The notes beneath the pieces were generated by a model. The model was given only the letters and a program-made list of their open reading frames with translations, ran no database searches and was not told the origin of the DNA. From a virus (lineage: Duplodnaviria; Caudoviricetes): a stretch of DNA of 64,000 nt. The DNA lies in IMG/VR virus record IMGVR_UViG_3300033073_001332, positions 155,554-219,553 of that record. The stretch is one strand, 5' to 3'. The position numbers and the translations under genes are program-made. The number at the start of each line of letters is the position of its first letter. The first letter of the stretch is position 1. Below are positions 5,656 through 63,928 of this stretch, piece by piece.

Positions 5656-6564
5656 ATGGCATTAGGAACATATGGTATTGTAAGACCTTCGGATGTATCA
5701 CCAGCAGATGTTGATATCATATTACACTACACACCAAGTAGAGATGTTACGGATAATTTTCTTCTTAAAAAATTAAACTCACAAAGTGTTTTAACACCGT
5801 ATTATCATAATTCAGATACAGGTGGTAATGCAGGTGTTGAAGTTTTAGGTGGATTATACAACTTAAAATTACCTGCTAGTGAATTTAATAAAAAAGGAAT
5901 TTACACATTATACATTAAACCTGCCGAAATTAGAACAACAATTAACGATTGTGGGGTGTTATCGGCATTACCAAATGTTAAAGGTATTATTATCAACTTG
6001 AATGATGTACCATCACAATTTAGAAATAAATTCACAAATCAAGGTCTTGTTGGATTTAGAGTGGAATACTTAAATTCTGATGGTAGTAAAATACCTAATT
6101 TTTATAGAATAGTAACATCATCATTCTTTTGCGAACCAGTAACAACTGAACAAATTAATTCATCACAAAAGACAATAAGATATCGTTATGTTGATGGTGG
6201 AAGTGATTTAGTATTTTGTACGTTATCACCTTCATCCTCACCTACTAACAAACCAACCGCAACTCCATTCATTGGACAACCAAACCAAAAAATCATTGTA
6301 ACAAATACTTTTTTCAATCCAATCACTATTGATATCCAAATGGCTGACTACGATTTAGATACAATTGCAATCGCTCTTTATGGTAATCAAAGTAAGAGTA
6401 TGGAGGACGGAATTTACACTCTTTACGATAGTAATAACAATATCTATAAACAATATAACTTATTTGAGGTTAGAGATAACTTTAACGAGTTACTTTATGA
6501 AGTTAGACAAGACAGAGGTTCTAATATAGACTTCAGTAAAAACTTTACAAATATTATTACTTAA
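5656..6564 (+). CDS. Putative virion structural protein
   Basis: 302-aa ORF preceded by TATTTAT motif at 5639. Confidence 0.55.
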   Translation: MALGTYGIVRPSDVSPADVDIILHYTPSRDVTDNFLLKKLNSQSVLTPYYHNSDTGGNAGVEVLGGLYNLKLPASEFNKKGIYTLYIKPAEIRTTINDCGVLSALPNVKGIIINLNDVPSQFRNKFTNQGLVGFRVEYLNSDGSKIPNFYRIVTSSFFCEPVTTEQINSSQKTIRYRYVDGGSDLVFCTLSPSSSPTNKPTATPFIGQPNQKIIVTNTFFNPITIDIQMADYDLDTIAIALYGNQSKSMEDGIYTLYDSNNNIYKQYNLFEVRDNFNELLYEVRQDRGSNIDFSKNFTNIIT

Positions 6565-12900: not shown

Positions 12901-12955
12901 CGTAATTCAAGTTGATGCTTCAGGGGTGATAACAAATGTACAAATCTGCCCATAA
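9929..12955 (+). CDS. SprB-repeat, Cys-rich virion/adhesin-like protein
   Basis: Repeated GxxPYTYxWxNG...GLxxGTYxxTVTDxxGC units typical of SprB repeats. Confidence 0.7.
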   Translation: MACVSGLTNGVYSYIDCCGNTQTGVSVGQSICLDETLTGTSFGVYIATGQTCTENCNQGPLDVSFSVTGVCSAATGTITFYPTGGISPYTIDNTFDPSISAQTGTTQITFSGLSGGTYVFRLNDSQGIQNNELFINVTISGCFDAKIYNTSGTTCGLDNGYFEVSAATSGSPYTILLYKDGVYDSTVGAATLPQPFSNLASGIYYAIVVDNALATAYTENTVISATTAVDFGFWKVDTSNCDLNWGKLAVTGMTGTGPYTYLWDNGQTTQIITGLTQGTYSCTVTDSLGCQTTKSETIGVAQPLGLAFQTAVQPSCFQNDGSLTFTVTGGTLPFYYSATTGLVGYTLDNEFTISGLSAGNYDVLVRDASYCQTIVSGNLLTPGSFDLVGVSVTNPVCNINGGSIQINIGGANQSYNYTLSGQTSGSVQSNVSQSQTYTFSNLVTDNYLITISGSGSSCVYRQEVSVTSTPKFSISATTTGSTCGQLNGTAVIQVSTGYTSPLDYILSNGDTLIDSPLSAITYTDLAAGSYTISVTDADGCVVTTGFTISTGGSLVTGLSTTNCNGTNNGTATVNIYDGSPPFTYSWSNGQTGSTATNLSGGTYDVTITDASGCTQTQNFTITCIGNLITSYQTFNLCTNTFTTTSSNQRGLIEMLNEGYLDITSGYTGCSFNSAELTCEVEINGTAYTQTFYTATTLNDVPQDTLWQTTIEDILSGIPQIQSYEVNLLNNTLTIYSNCDGDEDPLSDADFSLSLSIVYDVTCTGTLYPAPPAPPVTYEALYTSTSFANVSSSIWPISGVESGTISYSGAPNEILTMRVTLPNLINFSGGTSINGINYNEYSASTFTASTNSSGVGTLTLISSATTHTNVYGQKIHYLEILNSSSGSTIGPPGNGSSWLRWRYTNPISGSQNLIGGNTISATTSGDACNNITYDTSYRIINTGLTINTGSTVYSGTTGAILVNGNNKWISVYYPAAPSGLGYYSGFTYGTKYVIQVDASGVITNVQICP

Positions 12956-13554: not shown

Positions 13555-16500
13555 ATGCCAACTTATAATAGACTAACCGATAGGTCTTTAGCGACCGGAG
13601 TAACACTAAATGATTTAATTCATATAGTAATAACGGGTGATACGTCACAAAACGCCGCGGGTTCATCATATAAAGCAACAATTCGACAATTAGCAAATGC
13701 AATTACTGGGGCGACAGGAACTGCAGGTACTGCCGGTACATCTGGAACAAACGGAACTTCAGGTACTAGTGGTATTGGAACAAACGGAACTTCAGGTACT
13801 AGTGGTATTGGAACAAACGGAACTTCAGGTACTAGTGGTGTTGGTACTAACGGAACTTCAGGTACTAGTGGTGTTGGTACTAACGGAACGTCAGGGACTA
13901 ATGGGACAAACGGAACGTCAGGAACTAATGGTACTAGTGGTATTTCATTTATTTGGAGAGGTAATTGGGACAATTTAATTAATTATGATTTGAATGACGT
14001 TGTGTACTATAATGGTAGTTCATACATAAATGTAGACGTTTCTCACGATAATCAAGGTATGACTCCACCTTCATCCGGTATATGGGAATTAATGGTCGAA
14101 AGTGGTACATCAGGAACAAGTGGTGCTAGTGGAACTAGTGGGAGCTCAGGACTAAACGGAACATCGGGCACGAATGGTACAAGTGGAAGTAGCGGTTCAT
14201 CAGGTTTATCGGGAACAAACGGTACTAGTGGGACTGATGGGTCTTCAGGGATGTCTGGTATTGACGGAGCGTTAAGCGCTAGATGGTTATTTGGGTCAAC
14301 ATACACACCACCTACATCACCTGTAGTGGCGAATGGATATTTTTATACTGATAATGTAAATTTAAATACTATAACTGAATTTTATATTGCGGTCGTAGGT
14401 GAAAATACCGTTGATTATACAACCATGTTTATAAAATTAGCGGCTAGCGCTTCAATTATTGCAACAATTACTGATGTTACAAATAATTCAATTCTTGGTA
14501 GTTGGGATATTCAATCAATTACAAATCAAGGGTTATCATACTCTTTTGTAACTAATAATACATTAGCCTCTAATGGAACACTAACACCTGGTTCATCTTA
14601 TTCTATAAGTTTTTCTATTGTAGGTGGTAGTGGTTCTTCAGGTAGTTCTGGTTCAAGTGGAACAAGTGGTTCTTCAGGTAGTTCTGGAACTTCAGGTTCA
14701 AGTGGTTCAAGTGGAAGCTCAGGACTAAATGGAACATCAGGTTCTTCAGGTTTATCAGGGACAAATGGAAGTTCAGGTTCAAGTGGAACAAGTGGTTCTT
14801 CAGGTAGTTCTGGAACTTCAGGTTCAAGTGGTTCAAGTGGAACATCAGGTTCATCAGGAACAGGGTTTAATGCGGTCCAAACACCTGCTGTTACAAGAGT
14901 TTTAACATCTGATGGAACAACAACAGGTGCAATTGCACAATCAGGATTAACATATAACGGCAGTCAATTAACTGTTAGCGGTTTAACCTATACGAGCGGA
15001 ATTACATCTATTAGTGGAATCATATTCAAACAAGTAACAATTAATAGTTCTTATACTGCAACGACTCAAGACTACATGATTGATGTAACAGGAGGAACAT
15101 TCACCGTATCACTACCAACTGCGGTAGGACAACAAGGTAGGTTATATGTAATTAAAAACAATGGTGGGGGTGCAGTTACGGTAGACCCGTTTGGGAGCGA
15201 AACAATTGATGGGAAACCTTTTGTAATATTAGGTGAAACAAACTCAATTCAAATAGCAAGTAATGGTACAGAATGGGTGGCATTAGGGTATAACATATCA
15301 ACGGTAAACTCATCAACGGGTGTATTTGAATTTTCAGGTTTAACTATAGCGTCACCAACCACATTTACCGTTGCCCCCGTTAAGGGTTGGATTGTGGATG
15401 ATACAAGTAATCCATTATCACCACAACTTTATTATGTGTCATATAGTGGTGGAACACATACTGCGAGTTACGTAACAACAAATACGGGAACTTGGATTTA
15501 TTTAACAAGTGGAGGGACAATATCCCAACAACCTACCGCGTTAACAGATATTCAAAGAAGACAAAATATATTTTTAGGTAAATTAGGTCATGCAAATAAA
15601 ACAAGTATCATTAATGCGTTTAGCCAACCTGATTTTGTTTTATCACCTTTGGCACAACTTCGTGATGTGTTCGACCCAATTAGTTTAATTAATGAGGGGG
15701 TTCAGACATCAGCAAATGGCACAAATTTATCATTTAATACAAGTGCGGGATATCTTCACGGATTGGGTATTAATTTTGCAAATGATACATTAAACCCTAA
15801 TACATTATATATATCAGGGACATCACCATGTACTTTTCAATATAGAACACAAACAGGAGGAACATCATCAAACGTCACACTTATAGACCCTACAAAATAT
15901 GATGTTGGAGGTGTAATTACAAGTTTATCAGGAACTAAAGCAACCAATCAAAGAATTTATTTAGTACAAAATGGGGTGTTTAGGGTTCAATATGGACAGA
16001 CCCAATACTCAACATTAGCACAGGCAGTTGCAGGTATCGCAACTGAACAATATGTAGAATTTGTTAACTTTCAAACAAATGGTATTTTAATCGGTGTATT
16101 ATCAGTTTTAAGTTCGGCAACGGATTTATCAGACTCAAGTAAAGCGTTATTTTTTAACGTATCGAAATTTGGTGACGCAACAGGTGCTGCCGGAGGAACT
16201 CCAACAACAAATTTACAACAAGCATATAATAACTCATCAGAACCTGAAATAATCATTAATTCAACATTAGGTGCATTATCAATTAAAAATGGTAGTGGTA
16301 ATCCGGACATCACTACAAATATATTTGAAGGTGTCGACTCAACAAATAATGTAACATCTTATATAACTGCAAGGGGCGATGTAACCGGGTCTAGGTTTAC
16401 TACCACTGGTATAATTAGTGGAGGTTCGGTAACGTCACCAACCATATCAGCAACTACATTATCCGCAAATACAATTTCATCACCTACAATATCTGCAACT

Positions 16501-17016
16501 ACTTTATCTGCAAATACAATTTCATCACCAACAATAACATCACCAACAATATCGGCAACCACACTTTCAGCAACAACAATAGTTTTAAATGGGTCTAATA
16601 TAACATCATCTTGGACATCATACACACCTATTTGGTCATCAAATGGTACCCAACCTGTCTTAGGTAATGGTTCACTTACAGGAGCATACAAAGTTATTGG
16701 TAAAACATGTTTTGTACGTGCAAGATTAGCACTTGGAACAACATCAACAGGTGGTAGTGGACATTGGTTATTTAGTTTACCTTTTTCTGCTTCTACTTCA
16801 GATGGTATACAATTCCCATGCTCAATGCTTGATAACGGAAATGCGTGGTATGAGGGGACAGTTAATGGAACATATGCTGGACTTACTGATAAAACTGCAA
16901 TCATAGCTAAATCTAGTGGAACAACAAGCTCATCAGAAGCAGTAACTGCAACTATGCCATTCGTATGGGGAGCTGCGGATAGTCTACAATTTAATGGTTC
17001 ATACGAAATTGCTTAA
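13555..17016 (+). CDS. Tail fibre-like protein with Gly-X-X (GTS/GTN/GSS) repeats
   Basis: Three Gly-X-X repeat blocks; WRGNWDNLINYDLNDVVYYNGSSY module; VSLP...YVIKNNG...ETIDG fibre motif; TATTTATA at 13540. Confidence 0.75.
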   Translation: MPTYNRLTDRSLATGVTLNDLIHIVITGDTSQNAAGSSYKATIRQLANAITGATGTAGTAGTSGTNGTSGTSGIGTNGTSGTSGIGTNGTSGTSGVGTNGTSGTSGVGTNGTSGTNGTNGTSGTNGTSGISFIWRGNWDNLINYDLNDVVYYNGSSYINVDVSHDNQGMTPPSSGIWELMVESGTSGTSGASGTSGSSGLNGTSGTNGTSGSSGSSGLSGTNGTSGTDGSSGMSGIDGALSARWLFGSTYTPPTSPVVANGYFYTDNVNLNTITEFYIAVVGENTVDYTTMFIKLAASASIIATITDVTNNSILGSWDIQSITNQGLSYSFVTNNTLASNGTLTPGSSYSISFSIVGGSGSSGSSGSSGTSGSSGSSGTSGSSGSSGSSGLNGTSGSSGLSGTNGSSGSSGTSGSSGSSGTSGSSGSSGTSGSSGTGFNAVQTPAVTRVLTSDGTTTGAIAQSGLTYNGSQLTVSGLTYTSGITSISGIIFKQVTINSSYTATTQDYMIDVTGGTFTVSLPTAVGQQGRLYVIKNNGGGAVTVDPFGSETIDGKPFVILGETNSIQIASNGTEWVALGYNISTVNSSTGVFEFSGLTIASPTTFTVAPVKGWIVDDTSNPLSPQLYYVSYSGGTHTASYVTTNTGTWIYLTSGGTISQQPTALTDIQRRQNIFLGKLGHANKTSIINAFSQPDFVLSPLAQLRDVFDPISLINEGVQTSANGTNLSFNTSAGYLHGLGINFANDTLNPNTLYISGTSPCTFQYRTQTGGTSSNVTLIDPTKYDVGGVITSLSGTKATNQRIYLVQNGVFRVQYGQTQYSTLAQAVAGIATEQYVEFVNFQTNGILIGVLSVLSSATDLSDSSKALFFNVSKFGDATGAAGGTPTTNLQQAYNNSSEPEIIINSTLGALSIKNGSGNPDITTNIFEGVDSTNNVTSYITARGDVTGSRFTTTGIISGGSVTSPTISATTLSANTISSPTISATTLSANTISSPTITSPTISATTLSATTIVLNGSNITSSWTSYTPIWSSNGTQPVLGNGSLTGAYKVIGKTCFVRARLALGTTSTGGSGHWLFSLPFSASTSDGIQFPCSMLDNGNAWYEGTVNGTYAGLTDKTAIIAKSSGTTSSSEAVTATMPFVWGAADSLQFNGSYEIA
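13720..14862 (+). repeat. Coding Gly-X-X repeat blocks
   Basis: GGN-ACN/TCN triplet repeats, including near-exact 24-nt units. Confidence 0.85.
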
Positions 17017-22487: not shown

Positions 22488-24695
22488 ATGTCATACATAA
22501 TTAAAGATACCGCAGCATTAATTAACACATTGGTAACCGATGCTGGAAGAAAAAAAATATCACAAGGTAAATTTGATATTTCATACTTCCAAGTTGGTGA
22601 TAGTGAAGTTTGCTACAATTGTGTAAACAATTTAGACCCGGTTAATTTAAATGTATTGATGCCACAATATAATACACAAAACTTAGCTCCCGCTCCACAA
22701 AAAAATAGAATGGAAATAAAGTATCCAATTTATTTGGATTCAACATCGGGAAGCACATATGGAGTACCATTTGATGCGTCATATATAGATAGTGTTTACA
22801 ATAGTGCAGCACCAAGAGGATTCTTTAACCCAAGTACTGGTACACCTTATAATTATAGTGCATATACTACATCAGCATATACAATCAATCCTAATTTTGT
22901 TGCTCAAAATAGTAGTATCACTTCAGGGACTACTTTAACAATATCAGGCACATCATTGGCTCCTTCAGTATCGGGAACCGTAACACCGGGAATGTTTATG
23001 ACATTATTTACTAATGGACAAATATCACCAGTACAAAATGCGGGACCACTATTCACCTATTTAGTTGTTGGTGTGACAGGAAACACGGCAACAGGAGGAA
23101 CCGTTACGATACAAGTAGATAGACAACTACCAAATTTAGGGGTGATGGGATTGACAGGAACATCACAAACTTTATTCTACCCAAGTGGTATGACCGTGTT
23201 ATATGATACGGTAACACCGGCACCTTACTGGGAAAATGATGTTATTAACTTTGAAACGAATTGTGACGTATCCGCAAGAAATGTTAATATATGGAATATG
23301 AATATTCCGTGGACGGAATCACCAGCAGGATTGTTCAGTAACACAAACCAAGATTTTAACTTATTTAAATCAACGGGATATACAGGGTCAAAAGAATATT
23401 TTGGATATGGTACAAACTCAGGTCAAATTGATACTGACTCGACTTACTATTACAACTCATTTGCTGAAAAAATTAATCTATCCCCGTCCGACCAAAAATC
23501 AATTGCGATTGTTCACTACACAAATCAGGCTATTGATAATTTTTATGGTGAAAAATTCGCACAAGAAGAATATGACCCTAACGACCCTGGAGGTACAGGT
23601 CAAGCAAGAAACTTTAGAATTACAATTCCATGGCTAATGTGGCATAAGAATTCAGGTGCAACGGTAGGACAAGAATTTTATACTGACCCATCAGGATTTA
23701 CAAGTCTTAATTTATTTGAACCACATTATATTGAGTCTAAAAAAGACCCTAATTTTAATGACCCTGGTTTAAGATATTATCACCTTTGGGATACTAACCC
23801 AAATACTAATGGATACCCTAACAGAGTAGGTAAAGTATTTCCTGATTATAAAATGATTATTTTTGACGACGATGAAATAGTTGCGGCGTTAAATTATAAA
23901 TCAAATAGGTCTTGGACATTACCGGCTCCAAAATTAGGTTTGATAACACCTAACACTTTTGGTGGAGTATTAGGAGGAACCACAGGTTTATTAACAGGTA
24001 ATTCAGAAACTTTATTCTTAACTTACATATTCACTAATACAGGTTTCACCAATTCACTACATTGTAACTATTATACAACAATAACAGGGAATGACCAAAG
24101 CTTATTACCAGGAGCATCAGATATAATCGTAAGATTTGGAAATGAATTCCCATTCTTAAGAAATACATATACATCACCAAGTGGGTTTACAGCTAATGGT
24201 ATCAAACTTATTGCACAAAAAGTATCAAGTGGAACTACAAGACCATCCGCAACGGCTTGGAAAGAAATTAATGTAATTTCACAACTATCAGCAACTACGG
24301 TCGGCGGTTATTTAACACAATCTGGAATGACAGGAACCACAATCCAATTAACTAAATCTATGTATGACACAGCACCCACATATAGATTAGATAACTACAT
24401 CAACTTACCATCTGTTGGTGATAGTGGATTAACCCTTAATTTCGGCGGTGAATACTTCTTCTTTGGTAATATTCAAACAGATATTCAAGCAACAATCTAT
24501 GTTATGAATTTCTTATGTAACTTAGGTCAAACACAATTCTTCGATTCATCTAACCCAACATGGACTGGTTCCAATCCATATGTAACTGAAGTTGGACTTT
24601 ACAATGCAGATAAAGAACTTATGGTTATATCGAAGATACAATCACCTGAGAAACGTCAGGGAATACAACAGTATCCGATTAAGTTAGATTTTTAA
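22488..24695 (+). CDS. Baseplate/tail-collar fibre-like protein
   Basis: N-terminal LVTDAGRKKI...FQVGDSE and C-terminal VTEVGLYNADKELMVISK resemble P2 gpH N-terminal/DUF3751 motifs. Confidence 0.55.
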   Translation: MSYIIKDTAALINTLVTDAGRKKISQGKFDISYFQVGDSEVCYNCVNNLDPVNLNVLMPQYNTQNLAPAPQKNRMEIKYPIYLDSTSGSTYGVPFDASYIDSVYNSAAPRGFFNPSTGTPYNYSAYTTSAYTINPNFVAQNSSITSGTTLTISGTSLAPSVSGTVTPGMFMTLFTNGQISPVQNAGPLFTYLVVGVTGNTATGGTVTIQVDRQLPNLGVMGLTGTSQTLFYPSGMTVLYDTVTPAPYWENDVINFETNCDVSARNVNIWNMNIPWTESPAGLFSNTNQDFNLFKSTGYTGSKEYFGYGTNSGQIDTDSTYYYNSFAEKINLSPSDQKSIAIVHYTNQAIDNFYGEKFAQEEYDPNDPGGTGQARNFRITIPWLMWHKNSGATVGQEFYTDPSGFTSLNLFEPHYIESKKDPNFNDPGLRYYHLWDTNPNTNGYPNRVGKVFPDYKMIIFDDDEIVAALNYKSNRSWTLPAPKLGLITPNTFGGVLGGTTGLLTGNSETLFLTYIFTNTGFTNSLHCNYYTTITGNDQSLLPGASDIIVRFGNEFPFLRNTYTSPSGFTANGIKLIAQKVSSGTTRPSATAWKEINVISQLSATTVGGYLTQSGMTGTTIQLTKSMYDTAPTYRLDNYINLPSVGDSGLTLNFGGEYFFFGNIQTDIQATIYVMNFLCNLGQTQFFDSSNPTWTGSNPYVTEVGLYNADKELMVISKIQSPEKRQGIQQYPIKLDF

Positions 24696-29923: not shown

Positions 29924-30169
29924 ATGGGTAAAGCAGCAAAAGCACACAGAGAAAAAGTTTTGAAAAGAAACCGTAGAATGCAACATGAGAAAAACAAAAT
30001 CTCAAAAGAATGGAATGAAGCCATGAAAGAACAAATGGATAAATTGAAAGAGGAGTTTGCAAAAATGTCAGCAGAAACTGAAAACAACATAACAACAGAA
30101 ACAACAGATGAAGTTGAAGAAACTACCGTGGAAGAACAACAATCAACTGAACCTGTTTCAGCCAACTAA
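29924..30169 (+). CDS. Small protein, basic N-terminus and acidic C-terminus
   Basis: 81-aa ORF. Confidence 0.6.
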   Translation: MGKAAKAHREKVLKRNRRMQHEKNKISKEWNEAMKEQMDKLKEEFAKMSAETENNITTETTDEVEETTVEEQQSTEPVSAN

Positions 30170-32519
30170 AACATACAATTACGATATAATGAATAAAGAC
30201 CTTGATTTTTCAAAGTTTAATAACCCTTCTATTCAAGTAGTTTGGGAAGACTTACCTGAAAACTTTACACAAGACAAAATAAAGTCGGTTAAACATTACT
30301 TTTCCAAAAAGTACAATACGACCAATGTAAACGTTTTAACGAAGGCAAAAGTCACCAACACAGAAGAGAACCAAAGTATCGATGTGTCGATGAATATCAC
30401 CGATACAAACTACCAGTTGGGGTTAATTAAACAATATTTGGAAACAAAAGGTTATAATGACCACTTGGAGTCAGTCTTATCTATTAACCGTATGGTTGAA
30501 AATAAGATTGCAGAAAAACAAGAAGAAACAGCTCAGTTCAAAAAGTGGTACATTAAAAACATCGAGTTCTCAAATTTCCTTTCTTATGGTGAAAACCAAA
30601 GATTGGATTTTGAGAAACTTAATGGTATTGTGGTTGTAGAATCAGACCCACCAAACTTTGGAGGTAAAACCGTATTATCAGTTGACTTATTAATGTTCTT
30701 GTTCTTTAACGAAACAACAAAGACAACAAAAGCTGAAGAGATATTCAATCGTTTTAGCGATAAGAATAAAGTTCATGTCAAAGGTGAAGTGCAAATCGAT
30801 GGTGAAGATTATATCATAGTAAGAACTATCGAAAGAAAGTTATCTAAAAAAGGTGAGTGGAATGTAAAAACTGAATTGGACTTCTTCAAAAAGTTGTCTG
30901 ATGGTAGTCTACAAAACTTTACTGGTGAACAAAGAAGAGAAACAGAAGCGTTCATCAAGTCATCAATCGGAACAAAAGAAGACTTCTTAATGACCATTCT
31001 TACAACGGCATCAAACCTTGAAGAGTTGTTGGAAGCAAAACCAACTGCTAGAGGTCAGGTTCTTTCAAGATTTATGGGATTGGAGTTTTTGAAAACAAAA
31101 GAGGAGATTGCAAAAGAAATCTATTCTGAATTTTCAAAATCCAAGATGTCAAACATCTACTCTTCACAACAATTAAAAGATGATATTGAAACTCACGAAA
31201 ATTCAATCAAAACTAATTTAGAACAGATTGAAGAAAGTAAGAAGGAGTTATTGAATGTAGAAGAATCAATTCAAAAAGGTAAAACTTATCGTGATGATAT
31301 GTTAAAGAAAAAACATACAAACATTGACCACGAGATTAGTTTATTAAATCCAACAAAGACACAAGAAGAAATCAACACAATTGATTTTGAAAAGAAAGGT
31401 TTGATTTCTAAAATCAACGAATTAAAAGTTGTTGAGCCAAGTGAATTTTATAATGAAGAAACTCATGATAAAATTAAAGAAGAAATCAATGAACTTTACA
31501 AAGAGATAGTTAAGATTGATACTGAAATATCATCAATCAACAAATTGAAGTCATCTGTTGAAGGTGGAATCAAATGTGAACATTGTGGTATTGAGTTAAT
31601 GAACGCAGCAATTACGAATGCTAAGATTGCTGAACTTGATGGATATATCCGTCACAAACAGACAAATGAAGCAGCAATGACGGTTTTATCCCGCACAGAA
31701 GAAGGTTTTGTTCAGTTGAAAAAAGAGTTTGATGAGTATGAAAAAAACAAACTAATCAAAGAAAAGTATGAAGTTAGTATTGAAAGTTGTGATTTGAAAA
31801 TTACTTCTTTGAAAGATAAAATCAAAAGGTGGGAGGAAATCCAAGACAAAATCAAAGAAAACCAAAGTATTGATTCAATGTTAATCAAAGCTGATTTGAG
31901 ATTGGATGAACTTGATAATCAAAAAAATAGAATCAATACCCTTATTTCTAATAATGAGTTTACCATTAAGTCTTTAGAGGAAAAGATTGAAAACAACAAA
32001 AAAACTATCATCAAAATCCAAGAAGAGGAAGAGAAAGAAAAAATTTATAAGATATACTTAGAACTTTTCGGTAAGAACGGTATTTCTAAAATCATAATGA
32101 AAACTATGATGCCTCTTATCAATTCAGAACTCCAACGATTGATGGAAGATAGTTCATACTTTAAATTGGAAATAAGAATTTCGGACAAAAACGAAGTTGA
32201 GTTTGTCATGATTGATAATGGAACTGGTGTTGAAAAACTGATGGTTTCTGGTTCGGGTTATGAGCGTAGTATTGCGGCACTTGCATTACGTTCAGTATTA
32301 AGTAAGATATGTAGTTTACCAAAACCAAACGTGATTGTATTCGATGAGATATTTGGCAAAATTAGTAATGACAACTTGGAAATGGTTTCCGAATTCTTTA
32401 TCAAAATCAAAGAATATTTTGACAAGATTTTCGTTATAACTCACTCACCACTTGTTTCTCAATGGGCTGATTGTGTTGTGAAAATAAAAAAAGAAAATAA
32501 TGTGTCAAAAGTTTTGTAA
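30108..32519 (+). CDS. sbcC: SbcC/Rad50-like ABC ATPase (start uncertain, possibly 30189)
   Basis: NFLSYG, Walker A NFGGKT, coiled coil with CEHC zinc hook, SGSGYE signature, IVFDE Walker B, ITH. Confidence 0.9.
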   Translation: MKLKKLPWKNNNQLNLFQPTKTYNYDIMNKDLDFSKFNNPSIQVVWEDLPENFTQDKIKSVKHYFSKKYNTTNVNVLTKAKVTNTEENQSIDVSMNITDTNYQLGLIKQYLETKGYNDHLESVLSINRMVENKIAEKQEETAQFKKWYIKNIEFSNFLSYGENQRLDFEKLNGIVVVESDPPNFGGKTVLSVDLLMFLFFNETTKTTKAEEIFNRFSDKNKVHVKGEVQIDGEDYIIVRTIERKLSKKGEWNVKTELDFFKKLSDGSLQNFTGEQRRETEAFIKSSIGTKEDFLMTILTTASNLEELLEAKPTARGQVLSRFMGLEFLKTKEEIAKEIYSEFSKSKMSNIYSSQQLKDDIETHENSIKTNLEQIEESKKELLNVEESIQKGKTYRDDMLKKKHTNIDHEISLLNPTKTQEEINTIDFEKKGLISKINELKVVEPSEFYNEETHDKIKEEINELYKEIVKIDTEISSINKLKSSVEGGIKCEHCGIELMNAAITNAKIAELDGYIRHKQTNEAAMTVLSRTEEGFVQLKKEFDEYEKNKLIKEKYEVSIESCDLKITSLKDKIKRWEEIQDKIKENQSIDSMLIKADLRLDELDNQKNRINTLISNNEFTIKSLEEKIENNKKTIIKIQEEEEKEKIYKIYLELFGKNGISKIIMKTMMPLINSELQRLMEDSSYFKLEIRISDKNEVEFVMIDNGTGVEKLMVSGSGYERSIAALALRSVLSKICSLPKPNVIVFDEIFGKISNDNLEMVSEFFIKIKEYFDKIFVITHSPLVSQWADCVVKIKKENNVSKVL

Positions 32520-55152: not shown

Positions 55153-55359
55153 ATGGAATTAACTAAAACACAAACAAAAGAAATTGATGAAATCCTATCT
55201 TTAATTGAAGAAGGTTTATCGTTTGAAGAAAAACATGAAGAGGTCATGGATGTCTGTTTAGACAACGGAGTATTCGATTTAGAAGATGATGAAGATGGAG
55301 ATTTATATGAACAATATTCTAATTTAGTTTGGGATTATTTAGAAGACAAGGAGAAATAA
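55153..55359 (+). CDS. Small acidic protein
   Basis: 68-aa ORF. Confidence 0.55.
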   Translation: MELTKTQTKEIDEILSLIEEGLSFEEKHEEVMDVCLDNGVFDLEDDEDGDLYEQYSNLVWDYLEDKEK

Positions 55360-56207
55360 TGATAGAAACAGGAAAAATAATAAATGGAGATTGTGTTGAG
55401 GTAATGAAAGATTTACCAGAATCAACAGTAGACTTGATTGTAACATCACCTCCATACGGAGTGGGTATCGATTATGATGTACATGAAGATGATGTAGAAT
55501 TTGAGGATTACAAAGTATTTGCTAGAAATTGGTTATCAGAAGCATACCGATTACTAAAAGACGATGGTAGAATTGCTTTGAATATACCTTATGAAATCAA
55601 TCGTCAAAAGAAAGGTGGACGTATCTTTTTTGTGTCTGAAATGTGGCAGATTATGAAAGAGATTGGTTATGGGTTCTTCGGGATTGTTGACCTTGAGGAA
55701 CAATCACCACATAGAAGTAAAACCACAGCTTGGGGTTCTTGGATGAGCCCGTCATCACCATACATATATAACCCCAAAGAATGTGTGATTTTGGCTTACA
55801 AAAAACACCACATCAAAAAAGTTAAAGGAGAACCACAATGGACTGGAACCATGACAGACATTGAACAGGAAGATGGTTCTATAAAAAAGAAAAATGTTTA
55901 TGAGGAGAAAGATAAAAAAGAGTTTATGGAACTTGTGTTTGGTCAGTGGAATTACTTTGCAGATACTAAATCACTCACCAAGGCTACGTTCTCGATGGAC
56001 ATACCGACCAAAGCAATCAAAATTTTATCCTACAAGAATGATATAGTTTTAGACCCATTTGCTGGTAGTGGTACAAGTTTAGTGGCTGCTGAAGTTTTGA
56101 ACCGAAGATGGTTAGGAATTGAACTTAGTGAAAACTATGCAAAGATTGCACAAACGAGGGTTGATTATTTTAAAACACTCGACACTATAAATGAAATCCC
56201 ACAATAG
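55359..56207 (+). CDS. N4-cytosine/N6-adenine DNA methyltransferase (beta class)
   Basis: VTSPPY, later VLDPFAGSGTS and GIEL; start ATG 55359. Confidence 0.9.
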   Translation: MIETGKIINGDCVEVMKDLPESTVDLIVTSPPYGVGIDYDVHEDDVEFEDYKVFARNWLSEAYRLLKDDGRIALNIPYEINRQKKGGRIFFVSEMWQIMKEIGYGFFGIVDLEEQSPHRSKTTAWGSWMSPSSPYIYNPKECVILAYKKHHIKKVKGEPQWTGTMTDIEQEDGSIKKKNVYEEKDKKEFMELVFGQWNYFADTKSLTKATFSMDIPTKAIKILSYKNDIVLDPFAGSGTSLVAAEVLNRRWLGIELSENYAKIAQTRVDYFKTLDTINEIPQ

Positions 56208-56240: not shown

Positions 56241-57740
56241 ATGAAAATTATTATAACTGAGAGCCAATATAAAATGCTGATTAATGAATCAGGTATTAGA
56301 GATATTAAAAATCTTGCTAAAAGATACGACAAGGCTAAAATTTATTTTCACCAAGACTTAGATGGTGTTACTACTGCAATTGCTATGAAGGAGTACTTAG
56401 AACAAAACGGAATCAAAGTAGTTGATTGTGAAGTTATTCAATATGGTACTAAAGAATTTGCAATTAAAAAACCAGAAGGTGAAGGTAATATTATGCCGGT
56501 ATTAGTGGATTTTGCTCACGGTAAACCAATGTTTGTTATCCATACAGACCACCACGATAGTCAAGCTGGTGTTGAAGATGATACTGCAACTAACTTCAGA
56601 CCATCAAGGTCAAATGTAGAAACAATCTCTCAGATAATTTCACCAAAAGAAATATTCCCATCCGACGACATCATGTTAATATCAACGGTTGACTCAGCAA
56701 ACTTTGCTGTTAATAAGATAACACCAGAAATGGTGATGAACTTCTTATATAAGTTTGATAAAGATAGTTCCTTGAAACAAAACAAAATGTTAATGGGACT
56801 TGTTGTAAACAAGTTATTATTAGCTTACAAAAACAACGCAAACTTCTTGGAGGATTTGGTTATGAAATCAAAACCATCTTTGTTGAGTATATTAAACAAC
56901 ATCAAAAAATTAGCTAAAGAACAAGGTTTTGCTAGTACAGAAACAATGATTCAAAACCAAGAAAAATTCTTACAGGCAAGACAAAAAGAAGGTGTGTTAG
57001 AAAAAACGGGTAATGTCATTTCTCAGTTTGGACTTGGTAGTATGAAAAAAGGGTCATACGATAGATATGTACCATTTAGATTACATCCTGATGCTGATTT
57101 CTTAGTAACAGGTCTTGGAGGACAAGTTGGTATGGTACAAGCATCATGCAACCCTTTCAAAGAAGAAAGAGCACTTAAAGGTATTAATTTAGGTGAAATC
57201 AAAGACGAAATTTTAGAGTTGTTCAAACCTGAATTAGAAAAACAAATTTTAAGTTTCAGAATAATTAAAAAGATTGCAGAAAGAGAAGCAACACCAGAAT
57301 CAGTTGGATTTACTTCAAAAGATATGATGGCTCTTTATGGAAAAATGCCGTCATTCGATTCAGAAAAACAATCAATTAATGGTTATGACTTCTTGAAAGC
57401 AAATTCAGGAGGACACAAATGTATCACAAACATATCAGGTATCAACTTCTTATATAGTGGATACGATAAACCATACACTAAAGATTTACCGGCCGAAGTA
57501 TTACCAATAGCATTTTATGAGGGTAATAACAACTTTGTTAAAGATATTAGACAAAAACTTTTAAGATTTAGAAAATTGTCTGAGAAACAAATTGAAGTAG
57601 CTCTTAATCAAATGAGAAAAGAAGGTATTGATGTAAGTGTAGTTCCTAATAAAGAGAACCAAAGAACTTATTCTGATTTAGTTAGAGATATGAAAGATGC
57701 TTTTGTTGATATTTTGAACAAAAGAATTGAAAACGCTTAA
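56241..57740 (+). CDS. DHH-family phosphoesterase-like protein with N-terminal leader
   Basis: HQDLDG, LVDF, TDHH, later GGH. Confidence 0.7.
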   Translation: MKIIITESQYKMLINESGIRDIKNLAKRYDKAKIYFHQDLDGVTTAIAMKEYLEQNGIKVVDCEVIQYGTKEFAIKKPEGEGNIMPVLVDFAHGKPMFVIHTDHHDSQAGVEDDTATNFRPSRSNVETISQIISPKEIFPSDDIMLISTVDSANFAVNKITPEMVMNFLYKFDKDSSLKQNKMLMGLVVNKLLLAYKNNANFLEDLVMKSKPSLLSILNNIKKLAKEQGFASTETMIQNQEKFLQARQKEGVLEKTGNVISQFGLGSMKKGSYDRYVPFRLHPDADFLVTGLGGQVGMVQASCNPFKEERALKGINLGEIKDEILELFKPELEKQILSFRIIKKIAEREATPESVGFTSKDMMALYGKMPSFDSEKQSINGYDFLKANSGGHKCITNISGINFLYSGYDKPYTKDLPAEVLPIAFYEGNNNFVKDIRQKLLRFRKLSEKQIEVALNQMRKEGIDVSVVPNKENQRTYSDLVRDMKDAFVDILNKRIENA

Positions 57741-58090
57741 GAACTAAAAATTACCTCGTCACCTTCTTGGATATTTAAGTCTCTACAGGTTTCACCTGCG
57801 ACTTCTAATACCATATCACCAAATCCCGAGTATTGCTCACAACCACTTTCATTATAACAAGGAAGACAATTATGATGTATTTTAGTTATAATACCATTAT
57901 CTATCATAATAATATCCAAAGGGACAATACAATTATACATCCAAAAAGATTGTTCAGTTCGATTTGGCATCATAAATAACATACCATTATACGTATAGTT
58001 GAAATTTTTATTCATCATTCCATTTTGAATTGCTTGTGAAGTAACCGCAACTTTACATTGAAATACGTTATTTTTGATTTTTACTTTCAT
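57737..58090 (-). CDS. DUF192 family protein
   Basis: GMLF, FWMYNCIVPLDIIMID, VLEVAG, GD. Confidence 0.8.
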   Translation of the reverse strand: MKVKIKNNVFQCKVAVTSQAIQNGMMNKNFNYTYNGMLFMMPNRTEQSFWMYNCIVPLDIIMIDNGIITKIHHNCLPCYNESGCEQYSGFGDMVLEVAGETCRDLNIQEGDEVIFSS

Positions 58091-58285
58091 ATTTTATAAA
58101 TATCTTAAAAAAAAATATTAACTAAACGAACTTTTGTTAATTGATGGTATATTTATATTTACTACAAAAAATCAAATATATTTTTATTGGAACCTTGACA
58201 AATCAGAACAATAATATTAGATTTGTGAAACAATTAGGAAACGTCCTAATGATGAATTGAAATATTAACCTTAAAAAACACTTTT

Positions 58286-58432
58286 ATGAGTGAAAACACT
58301 GAAACGTCAGTTGTAGAAATTTTTTATTACTACAATGACAAAGGACAGAAGTTGTATACTTCTAATGAGATTTTTGCAATGGCAAGAGCTCAACAATATG
58401 GAACCGATAAAGTTTTTGTAGAAAAAGTTTAA
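58286..58432 (+). CDS. 48-aa hypothetical protein
   Basis: Manual translation MSENTETSVVEIFYYYNDKG... Confidence 0.5.
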   Translation: MSENTETSVVEIFYYYNDKGQKLYTSNEIFAMARAQQYGTDKVFVEKV

Positions 58433-58438
58433 TAAAGG

Positions 58439-58470
58439 TTTGATAGTCTCAAATTAAATTACTAAATTTG
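58439..58470 (+). promoter_or_regulatory. Bacteroidota-type promoter for the large ncRNA
   Basis: TTTG-N20-TAAATTTG. Confidence 0.65.
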
Positions 58471-58619
58471 TAAAAGATTTGAAACTTATAGGTGATGAAA
58501 GATACTCGGTATTCAAATCACAAACGTTCTTTGAAAAGATTGAAATTAGAACAAAATGTTCAGTTTGAACTTAAAAAAAAGATTAACCCCCTTTTCTTTG
58601 AAGTTTAAATACATAGAGT

Positions 58620-59455
58620 TCTTTGGGCCGTGTATAGTCCATTAAAATAAACTACGAAAGTAGGATAAAGTGAACCCTTAAGTGTGTTGGGTTTGCGTCT
58701 TGTTAATCTTCGGATTAATGAGGTCGAGTACACAAGCGGGATACCATTTTGGCTTTAGTATTGAGGGCAACGCTGTAAAGAAAGAGGCAAAATGAAAGGG
58801 CGGTGTGGGTCGTCCGATTGAGGTGGGAACACCAATAGGAATAACCCGTAGGATTATTGCAAGAACTGAGGTCATCCAACTTCAATATTGCGTGTTCCAA
58901 TATGATAGGTTACTTAAAACCAAGTGGAAGTACCACAAGGTAAGAAGGAGAACGAGTGGTGTCGCTACCTTCCCTTACGGTGGTTTACCAAAACCCTGTA
59001 ATGAAGTAGTCTAAAAATATGGAAATGGGGACATTTCAAGGAGTAGTTGAGTATTCCGTTGTTCAAAAGATAACGGAGCCCGTGACGGACCACTACTTCT
59101 AAAATCCACGACACAAAAACTTTATTTTACATTTCAGAAGTAAAATTCATGATATACTATAAAGCAAAAGTGTCCGTCAGGTAATAGTGAAAGGTGACTA
59201 CATAGTAATGAGCCGTTCATTGCATCGATTAGACCGCAAGTTTAACGATATTCTTACCAAACACCTCTAGTCCCGCAAGGACTAACTGGGAAGGCATTCT
59301 CGGAGAGAGTCAAGTAATAAGAGAGTAACTATTATCTCAAGGAGTGGTACACCTAAAAGACCGTCACTGAGGAATACTTCTCAAAAGGAAGTGGATACGA
59401 AGGGAAACAATAATCCTTCAAAAGATACCTCACTAAAAACTGTAATCTCAGGTTT
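58620..59455 (+). ncRNA. Large structured ncRNA, GOLLD-like (~830 nt)
   Basis: No credible ORF, higher GC, many GNRA/UUCG/GCAA hairpins, upstream promoter, downstream terminator, near tRNAs; family assignment unverified. Confidence 0.65.
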
Positions 59456-59490
59456 TTATTTTTTATGGAGCGACCGGCAAAAAAATATTG

Positions 59491-59522
59491 ATGGATAAGA
59501 TTTTTTTCTTATCCATTTTTTT
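59491..59522 (+). terminator. Terminator after the ncRNA
   Basis: ATGGATAAGA-loop-TCTTATCCAT followed by T-run. Confidence 0.65.
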
Positions 59523-59553
59523 GTGCTTTAAATTTTTTTCATATCTTTGTGGT

Positions 59554-59991
59554 ATGGGAAACGCAAACAAACAAGGATACGTAATAAAGGATAAAGAAAT
59601 AAAATCTATCAAGAAGTTGGTGAAAGATATGACTATCATCACTAATGGTAGACCAGATGGTTGGAGAGACCACCGCGGAATGCTTTTGGGCGCTAAAATT
59701 AAAATTACATCTGTTAGAAAATACCAAAACAGATGGTCTTGGAATGGTTACAACGAATTTTGTTATGAGGTAGACATCGAAGTTGATATTACTGAGTCAG
59801 ATTACATGGGGTATTCTGGTTCAAAATATAGTGTAAGATACGATTTAGGTAGAGGTATTAGAAATACAAATAACTACTACCGTTCTTCTTATGAAAAATA
59901 TGTAACAGATGAATTAAAATATTTTGGAATCGATACTCGTTTTTACAGCGCACTTGTGACTATTTCAAAAATTAAATACAAATACCAATAA
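59554..59991 (+). CDS. Hypothetical protein
   Basis: ATG 59554 lies 4 nt after TATCTTTG. Confidence 0.6.
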   Translation: MGNANKQGYVIKDKEIKSIKKLVKDMTIITNGRPDGWRDHRGMLLGAKIKITSVRKYQNRWSWNGYNEFCYEVDIEVDITESDYMGYSGSKYSVRYDLGRGIRNTNNYYRSSYEKYVTDELKYFGIDTRFYSALVTISKIKYKYQ

Positions 59992-60044
59992 TTTATTTGT
60001 TTTATTCAAAATAGTTTTTTATCTTTGTAGAAATAATAAACGAC

Positions 60045-60311
60045 ATGGCAACAGTAAAAAGTATATTAGTAGTTCACCCAACACACGGTCAGTTAATTTC
60101 TGAAACTTTCTTGGATGAACTACAACACCAAATGTTCTTAAAAATGTTGCACACGGCAGTTGCAATGGGTATTGATTTTACCACATACAACGGCAAAGAC
60201 TTTTTCATTCACATCCCAAGTGGAATGTTAAAGGAGTGTTTGATTGTAGGTCAAGCACAAGAAGTTTCGATGGGTGACGTAGTGGTTGCCAAGTCCAAAC
60301 TTGAAATGTAG
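60045..60311 (+). CDS. Hypothetical protein
   Basis: 88 aa; TTTG-N20-TATCTTTG upstream. Confidence 0.6.
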   Translation: MATVKSILVVHPTHGQLISETFLDELQHQMFLKMLHTAVAMGIDFTTYNGKDFFIHIPSGMLKECLIVGQAQEVSMGDVVVAKSKLEM

Positions 60312-60373
60312 TTTCCTTGTTCTTAAAACAAGGTGGTGGAGAAGTTGACATTATTCAATGTCGGCCCAAAATT

Positions 60374-60400
60374 AAGGTGAAGGAGACTTCACCTTTTTTT
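60374..60400 (+). terminator. Rho-independent terminator
   Basis: AAGGTGAAG-gaga-CTTCACCTT plus T-run. Confidence 0.8.
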
Positions 60401-60421
60401 ATTTGTATGATATTTATTGAT

Positions 60422-60793
60422 ATGAATATAGAATCAATAATTAGAAGAGTATTAGTTGAGGAATTCTTAAATCAAAACGAATTCTTATATGAAGATATAT
60501 ACGGTTCGGTAGAAGAAGTAAATTTACTTCAAGAGGCTGAATACCAGGGAAGAAAAGTTCAACTTGGTAAAATCATGCAAGGAGACATCAAGAAGTTTAA
60601 AGTTTATGTTAAAAACGACAAAGGAAAAGTTGTTAAAGTAAACTTTGGTTTTGGTGGAAAATCAGCAAAAGGTAAAAGAATGGTTATTAAAAAGAATAAC
60701 CCTGAAAGAAGACGTTCATTTAGAGCAAGACACAATTGCGATAATCCTGGCCCAAGATGGAAACCAAGATATTGGGCATGTAGAACATGGTAA
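60422..60793 (+). CDS. Basic protein (DUF5754-like) with acidic N-terminal leader
   Basis: KKFKVYV...VNFG...RRRSFRARH; start after TATTTAT 60411. Confidence 0.6.
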   Translation: MNIESIIRRVLVEEFLNQNEFLYEDIYGSVEEVNLLQEAEYQGRKVQLGKIMQGDIKKFKVYVKNDKGKVVKVNFGFGGKSAKGKRMVIKKNNPERRRSFRARHNCDNPGPRWKPRYWACRTW

Positions 60794-60797
60794 GATT

Positions 60798-61097
60798 ATG
60801 AGCAAAATTATTATAACAGAAAAACAACTTGAAGAAGTTGTGAAAATGATGAAAGAGAACAAAGAAGAGGGTTCTTACATGGCAAAACAACAACTTTTTA
60901 CCATCGCAACTTTAGCATATAAAATGTGGGAGTTAATGGAAGAAGGTGAACAACTTGAAGATTGGATGGAATCAAAAATCGCACAAGCAGACCAAATGGT
61001 TACTGCTGTTGTGAAATCATATATGTATGATGAAGTGGAAAACAAAATCAAAGGGAGTCATGAATTTGACCCAAATGATTTAATCATAGGGATGTAA
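60798..61097 (+). CDS. Hypothetical protein with leader motif
   Basis: MSKIIITEKQLEEVVK; likely start 60798. Confidence 0.6.
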   Translation: MSKIIITEKQLEEVVKMMKENKEEGSYMAKQQLFTIATLAYKMWELMEEGEQLEDWMESKIAQADQMVTAVVKSYMYDEVENKIKGSHEFDPNDLIIGM

Positions 61098-61649: not shown

Positions 61650-61719
61650 AGTCGTATAGCTCAGTTGGTAGAGCAATCCATTTATGGACGTGTCACAGGT
61701 TTGAATCCCGTTACGGCTT
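61650..61719 (+). pseudogene. Degenerate tRNA-like element
   Basis: Acceptor AGTCGTA/TACGGCT and canonical D-arm, but shortened anticodon arm (TCCA-TTTA-TGGA) and TTTGAAT T-loop. Confidence 0.65.
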
Positions 61720-63890: not shown

Positions 63891-63928
63891 CAAAAGAAAA
63901 TGTTCTTTGACATATTGGCTTCATAAAT

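What the first reader, a model, noticed from the sequence alone, without database searches (positions are those of the whole stretch)
58439..59522. ~830-nt ornate non-coding RNA with its own promoter and terminator (GOLLD-like or new class)
Seen: ~1 kb without a credible ORF in a gene-dense genome, GC-enriched. Helices include CTAC-GAAA-GTAG (58652), TTAATC-TTCG-GATTAA (58703), GGTG-GGAA-CACC, GAAATG-GGGA-CATTTC (59022), TTCCGTTGTT/GATAACGGAG, TAGTCC-CGCAA-GGACTA and the long-range GAAGTAGT/ACTACTTC. Promoter at 58439-70, terminator at 59491. Known: GOLLD RNAs are ~800 nt, phage-associated, often near tRNAs, function unknown. Family identity is my inference.
Basis: partly seen in the sequence, partly recalled or inferred. 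Interest (0 to 1): 0.75.

Follow-up and report, generated by a model that had tools for sequence, protein, structure and literature searches.

The report
GOLLD cage RNA with rRNA-style leader
The gene-free kilobase is a full-length copy of GOLLD, a known giant phage RNA that self-assembles into hollow cages; the new point is that its leader carries the anti-termination box bacteria use for ribosomal RNA.

Summary
Window 58439-59522 (+) is an ORF-poor, GC-enriched unit for a large structured RNA. It is not a new class: Rfam GOLLD (RF02032) matches 59039-59454 over the whole model at 323 bits (cut-off 150). The 5' half (58623-59038), which Rfam does not model, is conserved in 62 other viral contigs, with 105 pairs of which 74 show compensatory changes. 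The core is 832 nt. The promoter and terminator are backed by comparison. The promoter is Bacteroidota-type (TTTG-N20-TAAATTTG), as in 46 of 50 related loci. The terminator stem covaries. Contigs from four metatranscriptome studies, some identical to the window, lie on the RNA. New here: 49 of 50 related loci carry GTTCTTTGA in the leader (window 58526-58534) after a covarying hairpin. The same 9-mer lies upstream of 16S in 11 of 16 Bacteroidota rRNA loci and in all 16 spacers, the classical boxA positions. A second copy sits in the phage's tRNA array. I read it as Nus-factor anti-termination for an untranslated RNA (about 60%). This scan has noted GOLLD loci on other DNA before, including in a Bacteroidota giant phage. 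Verdict: known family, new member, one possibly new feature.

The parts
58439..58470 (+). Promoter of Bacteroidota type: -33 TTTG (58439-58442), 20-nt spacer, -7 TAAATTTG (58463-58470). The start site near 58475 is inferred.
   Evidence: Pattern match. Conserved in 11 close relatives. TT[TG]-N17-23-TAnnTTTG is present upstream of 46 of 50 homologous GOLLD loci, against 12 of 50 for the reverse-complement control. TAnnTTTG appears as a promoter term in Bacteroides and Flavobacterium papers (titles listed, texts not read); the consensus itself is from my own knowledge.
58492..58521 (+). Leader hairpin in the boxB-like position: GTGAT...ATCAC around GATAC-TCG-GTATT.
   Evidence: Read from the sequence. 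The equivalent hairpin in other loci changes in a compensatory way (TCGG/CCGA, TCAGG/CCTGA, CTTGG/CCAAG; GATAC/GTATT against GAC.C/G.GTC).
58526..58534 (+). boxA-like element GTTCTTTGA. A second TTCTTTGA lies at 58594-58601.
   Evidence: TTCTTTGA lies upstream of 49 of 50 GOLLD loci (reverse complement 0 of 50), 27-29 nt after the -7 box in about 34 loci and 54-55 nt in the window's subgroup. The same 9-mer lies 77-209 nt before 16S in 11 of 16 Bacteroidota rRNA loci and in 16 of 16 spacers.
58549..58561 (+). Small leader hairpin GAAC-AAAAT-GTTC.
   Evidence: Compensatory variants in relatives: GATC/GGTC, TGAC/GTCA, GAAT/GTTC.
58623..59038 (+). GOLLD 5' domain (416 nt), not covered by the Rfam model.
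   Evidence: Homology to 62 unique viral-contig homologues begins at 58622-58626. 105 consensus pairs, 74 with changes on both sides, 97.7% of cells paired against 36-41% when partners are slid.
59039..59454 (+). GOLLD 3' domain. It includes the variable AU-rich linker (about 59101-59165) and the pseudoknot (about 59176-59185 with 59328-59337).
   Evidence: Rfam RF02032 at 323 bits, model positions 1-416, not truncated. 90 pairs, 49 compensatory, 99.0% paired. No tRNA is embedded in the linker.
59455..59477 (+). U-rich tail and conserved GGAGCGACCGG box (59467-59477); role unknown.
   Evidence: Conserved in several subgroups of relatives.
59490..59522 (+). Intrinsic terminator: ATGGATAAG / CTTATCCAT stem followed by a T run.
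   Evidence: Terminator scan. Its position is kept while the stem changes in relatives (ATGGATGATAA/TTATTATCCAT; AGGGACGAT/ATCGATCCCT), always followed by TTTTTTTGTG. A hairpin plus T-run lies within 120 nt downstream in 29 of 49 loci.
63902..63910 (+). Second intergenic boxA-like element, inside the tRNA array between tRNA-Thr and tRNA-Gln.
   Evidence: The 17 nt GTTCTTTGACATATTGG equal the spacer box of Bacteroidota loci L195, L205 and L209.

Best explanation
The locus is a self-contained transcription unit for a GOLLD RNA in a phage of about 220 kb or more. The host is probably in Bacteroidota. A host-type promoter (58439-58470) would start transcription near 58475. The roughly 150-nt leader carries a hairpin and then GTTCTTTGA, the same box found in the leaders and spacers of Bacteroidota rRNA operons. 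I infer that this box recruits NusB/S10 and the other Nus factors. That would make RNA polymerase resistant to Rho while it copies an 830-nt RNA that no ribosome protects, and it might also help the RNA fold, as is proposed for rRNA. The polymerase then makes the 832-nt GOLLD core (5' domain 58623-59038, 3' domain 59039-59454) and stops at the intrinsic terminator (59490-59522). By analogy with the solved env-38 GOLLD, which has the same length and a two-domain layout, the RNA should assemble by itself into a closed homo-oligomeric cage, probably a 14-mer, with the variable linker pointing inward. Shown here: family membership, the conserved structure of both domains, a conserved promoter, leader box and terminator, and presence in RNA libraries. 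Inferred: the start site, Nus binding and anti-termination (about 60%), cage formation (about 75%; 14-mer specifically about 50%), a Bacteroidota host (about 70%), and any link to the tRNAs that lie 1.9 kb or more downstream. What the cage does remains unknown in the literature I read. The option I favour is a container or scaffold acting on translation components during lytic growth, at about 30%.
For: GOLLD membership: Rfam 323 bits against 150, full model; single copy in the 219,553-bp virus contig. 5' domain: homologous in 62 unique viral contigs; 198 consensus pairs, 123 with compensatory changes; per-domain counts with slid controls. Promoter. Leader box. The same box in Bacteroidota rRNA leaders (11 of 16) and spacers (16 of 16), with consensus GTTCTTTGA in all three sets. 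Second copy in the tRNA array. BoxA lies upstream of 16S and 23S, is sufficient to nucleate the anti-termination complex that blocks Rho, is also used ahead of suhB and CRISPR operons, and the NusB:S10:NusG contacts are reported as broadly conserved across four phyla that include Bacteroidota (PMC13753749). The cis elements are named as boxB, boxA and boxC (PMC10250234 abstract). Terminator. RNA libraries: contigs from four metatranscriptome studies lie on 58645-59480, several identical to the window (for example 58668-59055 and 58905-59043). Cage: env-38 GOLLD is 833 nt, has a 5' region 1-420 and a 3' region 421-833, forms a D7 14-mer and has a disordered internal linker (PMC12286853). Both hairpins of the three-way junction in the Rfam model (59268-59305) are present here. 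tRNAs: all three ARAGORN tRNAs of the contig lie 1.9-4.5 kb downstream. Host hints: no Shine-Dalgarno enrichment at gene starts (7 of 174 against 12.4 at random) and 32% GC.
Against: No experiment or raw-read data fixes the 5' end, so the leader could instead be a processing signal or a DNA operator. The box is invariant, so covariation cannot show what it does. From memory, the 9-mer is also the boxA of Bacillota, so by itself it does not name the host. TAnnTTTG is not enriched upstream of gene starts across the whole contig (16 of 174 against 10.9 +/- 3.3). Bacteroidota rRNA leaders do not share the fixed promoter-to-box spacing. The leader has no unusual folding energy (z = -0.7). Oligomer number varies among GOLLD RNAs: the 3' domain of the S. 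agalactiae GOLLD forms mostly decamers, with octamers and dodecamers as minor classes (PMC12990946), so a 14-mer is only the likeliest guess. I did not align this RNA to env-38, and assigning the two junction hairpins to P21a/P21b is my own reading.
Confidence: 0.85

Rival explanations
1. The RNA is GOLLD, but the GTTCTTTGA element is not a Nus-factor boxA. It could be a nuclease processing site that frees the mature 5' end, a DNA operator for a phage or host regulator (TTC-N3-GAA is a near palindrome), or an RNA segment that pairs with the A-rich UCAAAAG loops of the 3' domain.
For: Its distance to the promoter is fixed but its distance to the core varies, which would also suit an operator. 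The near-palindromic form is read from the sequence. The repeated UCAAAAG loops are visible in the Rfam alignment.
Against: The reverse complement is never seen (0 of 50), so strand matters, which argues against a symmetric operator. The same 9-mer sits at both classical boxA places of Bacteroidota rRNA operons and again in this phage's tRNA array. A covarying hairpin precedes it, in the order in which the rRNA elements boxB and boxA are named (PMC10250234 abstract).
Confidence: 0.3
2. The stretch encodes a new class of ornate RNA that only resembles GOLLD.
For: The 5' half has no Rfam model.
Against: The 3' half matches the full GOLLD model at more than twice the gathering score. GOLLD is described as a conserved 3' region joined to a less conserved 5' region (PMC12286853), and this RNA has the same length as env-38.
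Confidence: 0.01
3. GOLLD here is not an independent gene but part of a longer transcript shared with neighbouring protein genes or the tRNA array.
For: Co-transcription of GOLLD or ROOL with tRNAs has been suggested (PMC5737381). A boxA-modified polymerase may read through weak terminators (PMC13753749). One RNA contig reaches 59480.
Against: A conserved promoter lies 150 nt upstream and a covarying terminator 35 nt downstream. The next gene has its own -33/-7 match at 59520-59549. Three protein-coding ORFs lie between GOLLD and the first tRNA.
Confidence: 0.1
4. The region codes for small proteins and the helices are incidental.
For: ORFs of 37-69 aa exist in it.
Against: 123 base pairs keep pairing through changes on both sides, the covariance model matches, and none of the ORFs is long.
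Confidence: 0.01

Closest known systems
GOLLD RNA (Rfam RF02032; env-38 structure in Kretsch et al. 2025, PMC12286853)
   Same: Full-length match to the family model. Two-domain layout with a variable linker. 832 nt against 833 nt for env-38. Phage location. tRNA genes nearby. Freshwater ('lake') origin of the samples that hold it.
   Different: Nothing that defines the family differs. Specific to this subgroup: a 15-nt insertion (58922-58938) replaces the usual CC-GAAA-GG hairpin, the TTAATC-TTCG-GATTAA arm is longer, and no tRNA is embedded in the linker. The conserved promoter-plus-box leader does not appear in the GOLLD texts I searched (term-matched passages only).
rRNA-operon anti-termination leader (boxB-boxA-boxC, Nus factor complex)
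   Same: A hairpin followed by the host-type boxA 9-mer in the transcribed leader of a long, untranslated, highly structured RNA. A second box lies within a tRNA array, much as boxA follows the spacer tRNAs in rRNA operons (PMC13753749; PMC10250234).
   Different: It sits in a phage, ahead of a non-ribosomal RNA. No boxC was identified. The fixed promoter-to-box spacing is not seen in Bacteroidota rRNA leaders. Binding and function are untested.
boxA outside rRNA: lambda nut sites, suhB and CRISPR operons
   Same: boxA placed ahead of non-rRNA transcription units, including untranslated CRISPR operons (PMC13753749). BoxA regulation beyond rRNA is reported, and non-coding RNAs were explicitly left out of that survey (PMC5725501).
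   Different: Those cases are in Pseudomonadota. No N-like phage protein is implied here.
ROOL RNA
   Same: A large ornate phage-associated RNA near tRNAs that also forms a cage (PMC12286853; PMC5737381).
   Different: No Rfam ROOL match here. ROOL has a different sequence and fold and forms an 8-mer.

Membership tests
GOLLD RNA (RF02032) | Covariance-model score at or above Rfam's gathering score, over the whole conserved 3' domain | tested here: met
   323 bits against 150, E 1e-91, model 1-416 of 416, not truncated.
GOLLD RNA (RF02032) | A large, less conserved, multi-stem 5' domain joined to the 3' domain, about 800 nt in total | tested here: met
   416-nt 5' domain with about 20 helices, 74 of 105 pairs compensatory; total 832 nt.
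GOLLD RNA (RF02032) | Pseudoknot and helices of the 3' domain maintained by covariation | tested here: met
   90 pairs, 49 compensatory, 99.0% paired. The pseudoknot arms (A1 columns 698-708 and 850-860) covary.
GOLLD RNA (RF02032) | Phage or prophage location, often near tRNA genes | tested here: met
   219.5-kb IMG/VR virus contig with tail-fibre and SbcC-like genes. tRNA-Arg lies 1.9 kb downstream, with three more tRNA hits before the contig end.
GOLLD RNA (RF02032) | Self-assembly into a homo-oligomeric cage | not testable with these tools
   Inferred from equal length and domain layout with env-38 (PMC12286853). Oligomer number varies among GOLLD RNAs (PMC12990946).
GOLLD RNA (RF02032) | The RNA is made | tested here: inconclusive
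   Contigs from four metatranscriptome studies lie on the RNA, some identical to the window. Contigs cannot show ends or strand, and DNA carry-over is not excluded.
rRNA-type boxA anti-termination leader | Box sequence equal to the boxA of the host clade's rRNA operons | tested here: met
   GTTCTTTGA in 11 of 16 leaders and 16 of 16 spacers of Bacteroidota rRNA loci; same core in 49 of 50 GOLLD leaders. The host clade itself is inferred.
rRNA-type boxA anti-termination leader | Lies in the transcribed leader, downstream of the promoter, on the sense strand | tested here: met
   55 nt after the -7 box here and 27-29 nt in most loci; reverse complement 0 of 50. The start site is inferred, not mapped.
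rRNA-type boxA anti-termination leader | Accompanying boxB-like hairpin and boxC | tested here: inconclusive
   A covarying hairpin precedes the box. No boxC was identified.
rRNA-type boxA anti-termination leader | NusB:S10 binding and Rho resistance | not testable with these tools
   Needs biochemistry or genetics.
ROOL, group I/II introns, RNase P | Rfam covariance-model match | tested here: not met
   No match at gathering thresholds in the window, nor at E <= 1 in 58100-59100.

The most novel reading that the evidence does not exclude
GOLLD cage RNAs of this freshwater phage clade are made the way cells make ribosomal RNA. A host-type promoter is followed by a boxB-like hairpin and the host's own rRNA boxA, which recruits the Nus anti-termination complex to protect, and perhaps chaperone, an 830-nt untranslated RNA. 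The same phage also puts a boxA in its tRNA array. If so, phages borrow the rRNA transcription machinery for their giant structured RNAs, and boxA becomes a genetic handle for switching GOLLD off and finding out what it does.
Probability: 0.55. Interest if true: 0.6.

Novelty: new member of a known kind. Interest (0 to 1): 0.4.

Why it matters
The RNA is an ordinary member of a family described in 2009 and solved by cryo-EM in 2025, so the finding as written adds a member, not a kind. Three things are useful. First, the 5' half, which the public model omits, is well defined here by 63 sequences with strong covariation. Second, this freshwater GOLLD clade can be tied, tentatively, to phages of Bacteroidota through its promoter type. 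Third, nearly every locus carries the rRNA-type boxA in its leader. GOLLD's function is an open question. A cis element needed for its synthesis would offer a way to remove the RNA without touching the cage sequence. It would also suggest that long phage non-coding RNAs must evade Rho as rRNA and CRISPR transcripts do.

Tried and rejected
1. DNA search of GenBank phages: one weak 156-nt hit in a 634-kb uncultured phage, no annotation.

2. The same motif scan over 185,579 species genomes gave 79 hits. None is homologous to either half by blastn, and about 190 chance hits were expected for 18 fixed bases.

3. Host by protein likeness: the SbcC-like protein finds only matches of 24% identity or less in Microcystis, Bacillus and Staphylococcus phages. 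Most large proteins have no PHROG family.

4. Relatives cannot be drawn for a virus record.

5. GOLLD was not found in 151 sampled Bacilli genomes or 151 sampled Bacteroidota genomes. Only 8 candidates per genome were scored and the controls were silent, so this says nothing about host range.

6. TAnnTTTG enrichment ahead of all gene starts in the contig is not significant (16 against 10.9 +/- 3.3).

7. Leader folding energy is not unusual (z = -0.7).

8. Rfam at relaxed thresholds found nothing in the leader or downstream apart from tRNAs and sub-threshold noise.

9. RNA-library contigs give no cover on 57400-58607 and almost none on 59546-60000.

10. The promoter-to-box spacing is not shared by rRNA leaders.

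11. A literature string search for the box together with 'boxA' gave one irrelevant paper.

13. I considered mapping the kissing loops named in the cryo-EM paper (L21a, L21b, L11a) onto this sequence but had no env-38 sequence to align, so those assignments stay informal.

Full report
**What is there.** The window is the last 64 kb of a 219,553-bp IMG/VR virus contig that CheckV rates 75% complete. Between the 48-aa ORF ending at 58432 and the ATG at 59554 no ORF exceeds 69 aa. GC content rises to 0.38-0.43, against 0.22-0.32 in the flanks. A scan of the whole window against Rfam gave one non-tRNA hit: GOLLD (RF02032) at 59039-59454 on the + strand. It scored 323 bits against a gathering score of 150, E 1e-91, covering model positions 1-416 of 416 without truncation. 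It is the only copy in the contig.

**The 5' half.** The Rfam model holds only the conserved 3' domain. To study the rest I scanned IMG/VR for a conserved GOLLD motif and got 111 stretches. blastn showed that the window's 5' half is conserved in nearly all of them. Homology starts at window 58622-58626, except in the closest relatives, which align further upstream. An alignment of the window with 62 unique full-length homologues (A1) gave a consensus fold of 198 pairs, 123 of which keep pairing through changes on both sides.

Split by domain:
- 5' domain: 105 pairs, 74 compensatory, 97.7% of cells paired, against 36-41% paired and 20-28 compensatory when partners are slid by 1-3 columns.
- 3' domain: 90 pairs, 49 compensatory, 99.0% paired.

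The core is therefore 58623-59454, or 832 nt. The single sequence folds 3.4 sd better than shuffles.

Six of the seven are in the consensus with covariation. The long-range pair is mis-assigned. ACTACTTC (59093-59100) pairs with the adjacent GGAGTAGT (59040-59047), as in the Rfam model. GAAGTAGT (59003-59010) closes a 5'-domain helix with 58906-58915.

**Promoter and terminator.** The generic sigma-70 scan is at chance level (12 sites against 11.4 expected). From my own knowledge this fits the Bacteroidota consensus of -33 TTG and -7 TAnnTTTG; one search lists Bacteroides and Flavobacterium papers that use the term, which I did not read. The site is conserved in eleven relatives. The same pattern also lies ahead of four or five neighbouring genes in the right orientation. 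Among 50 homologous loci with enough flank, 46 have TT[TG]-N17-23-TAnnTTTG 46-157 nt before the core, against 12 for the reverse-complement control.

Downstream, the hairpin at 59490-59517 keeps its place while its stem sequence changes in relatives, and it is always followed by a T run. A crude search finds a hairpin plus T-run within 120 nt in 29 of 49 loci.

**Expression.** The stretch is held by freshwater, groundwater and drinking-water metagenomes from at least 15 studies and by six metatranscriptomes. I laid four RNA runs from four studies on 57000-61000. Their contigs lie on 58645-59480, and several are identical to the window (58668-59055, 58673-58778, 58905-59043, 59195-59281, 59313-59402). 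These are assembled contigs, so they show presence in RNA libraries but not ends, strand or level.

**A conserved leader.** Between promoter and core lie about 150 nt that are conserved in blocks. TTCTTTGA occurs upstream of 49 of 50 loci, and its reverse complement of none. It sits 27-29 nt after the -7 box in about 34 loci and 54-55 nt in the window's subgroup, where the preceding hairpin is larger. Its distance to the core varies from 18 to 111 nt. The hairpin before it covaries (TCGG/CCGA, TCAGG/CCTGA, CTTGG/CCAAG).

This recalled the boxB-boxA leader of rRNA operons, so I tested it. I fetched 16S loci with flanks from 41 Bacteroidota genomes. GTTCTTTGA lies 77-209 nt before 16S in 11 of 16 loci with enough flank, usually just after a GC-rich hairpin, and it is in the 16S-23S spacer of all 16. 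Chance expectation is about 0.01 per 700 nt. The three consensus strings share GTTCTTTGA.

In the phage contig the 9-mer occurs 11 times, against 2.8 expected. Three copies are intergenic. One is the GOLLD leader copy (58526). Another lies between tRNA-Thr and tRNA-Gln (63902), where 17 nt equal the spacer box of three Bacteroidota genomes.

BoxA lies upstream of 16S and 23S, binds NusB:S10, and is sufficient to nucleate the complex that blocks Rho. It is also used ahead of suhB and CRISPR operons, and the protein contacts are reported as broadly conserved across four phyla that include Bacteroidota (PMC13753749). The survey of boxA targets outside rRNA left out non-coding RNAs (PMC5725501). 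None of the eight top-ranked papers in a search that combined GOLLD with boxA, antitermination or NusB held the word GOLLD.

**How it most likely works.** A host RNA polymerase starts near 58475. The nascent hairpin and boxA load the Nus factors. The modified polymerase copies the 832-nt core without Rho-dependent termination and stops at the terminator. The RNA then assembles into a cage like env-38 GOLLD, which is 833 nt long, has a 5' region 1-420 forming caps and a 3' region 421-833 forming rings, is a D7 14-mer, and has a disordered linker inside (PMC12286853). The window's linker (about 59101-59165) is AU-rich, poorly conserved and holds no tRNA. Oligomer number varies between GOLLD variants (PMC12990946), so the 14-mer is a best guess. 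The function is still unknown in the texts I read; suggestions there include encapsulation of tRNAs, ribosomes or other cargo.

**Host.** Three things point to Bacteroidota: the promoter type, the boxA identity, and the lack of Shine-Dalgarno motifs (7 of 174 starts against 12.4 at random). None is proof. From memory the 9-mer alone is also the boxA of Bacillota, and protein searches found no close cultured phage.

**Verdict.** The possibly new element is the rRNA-type leader. Earlier notes of this scan already record GOLLD loci in other phages, one of them in a Bacteroidota giant phage. I took them only as leads. The tRNA-like mimics and ribozymes they describe beside GOLLD were not found here.

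Noticed in passing
window 63902-63918: A boxA-like GTTCTTTGACATATTGG sits between tRNA-Thr and tRNA-Gln. It is identical over 17 nt to the 16S-23S spacer box of three Bacteroidota genomes, so the phage tRNA array looks like an rRNA spacer.
   Followed up: partly
window 61650-61719: Rfam calls a tRNA here (45 bits against a cut-off of 29) that ARAGORN does not report. Its anticodon and integrity were not examined.
   Followed up: no
whole contig G000:C1: GTTCTTTGA occurs 11 times against 2.8 expected. Six of the eight copies inside genes lie antisense to the gene. A third intergenic copy is at contig position 52921 (-).
   Followed up: partly
whole contig G000:C1: Gene starts lack Shine-Dalgarno-like 4-mers (7 of 174 against 12.4 in random windows), consistent with a Bacteroidota-like host.
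   Followed up: partly
window 59520-59556: A -33/-7 promoter match ends at 59549, only 4 nt before the ATG at 59554, so the downstream gene's mRNA may be leaderless or nearly so.
   Followed up: no
window 58922-58938: About 10 of the 63 aligned GOLLD RNAs, the window's included, carry a 15-nt insertion. It turns the usual short CC-GAAA-GG hairpin of the 5' domain into a longer GTGG-AAGTA-CCAC arm.
   Followed up: no
window 59467-59477: A conserved GGAGCGACCGG box of unknown role lies between the last GOLLD hairpin and the terminator in several subgroups.
   Followed up: no
L052:11500-11923 and L143:3310-3733: A viral contig and a Shewanella genome each hold two copies of the search motif 393 nt apart. 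L143 was checked by blastn and is not a GOLLD homologue; L052 gave no GOLLD 3'-domain hit. This is probably an unrelated repeated gene.
   Followed up: no
window 1-57740: Most large proteins of this phage have no PHROG family (for example 6564-9920, 9929-12955, 22488-24695). Recognisable ones are a tail fibre (13555-17016), an SbcC-like nuclease (30108-32519) and a DNA methyltransferase (55329-56207).
   Followed up: partly
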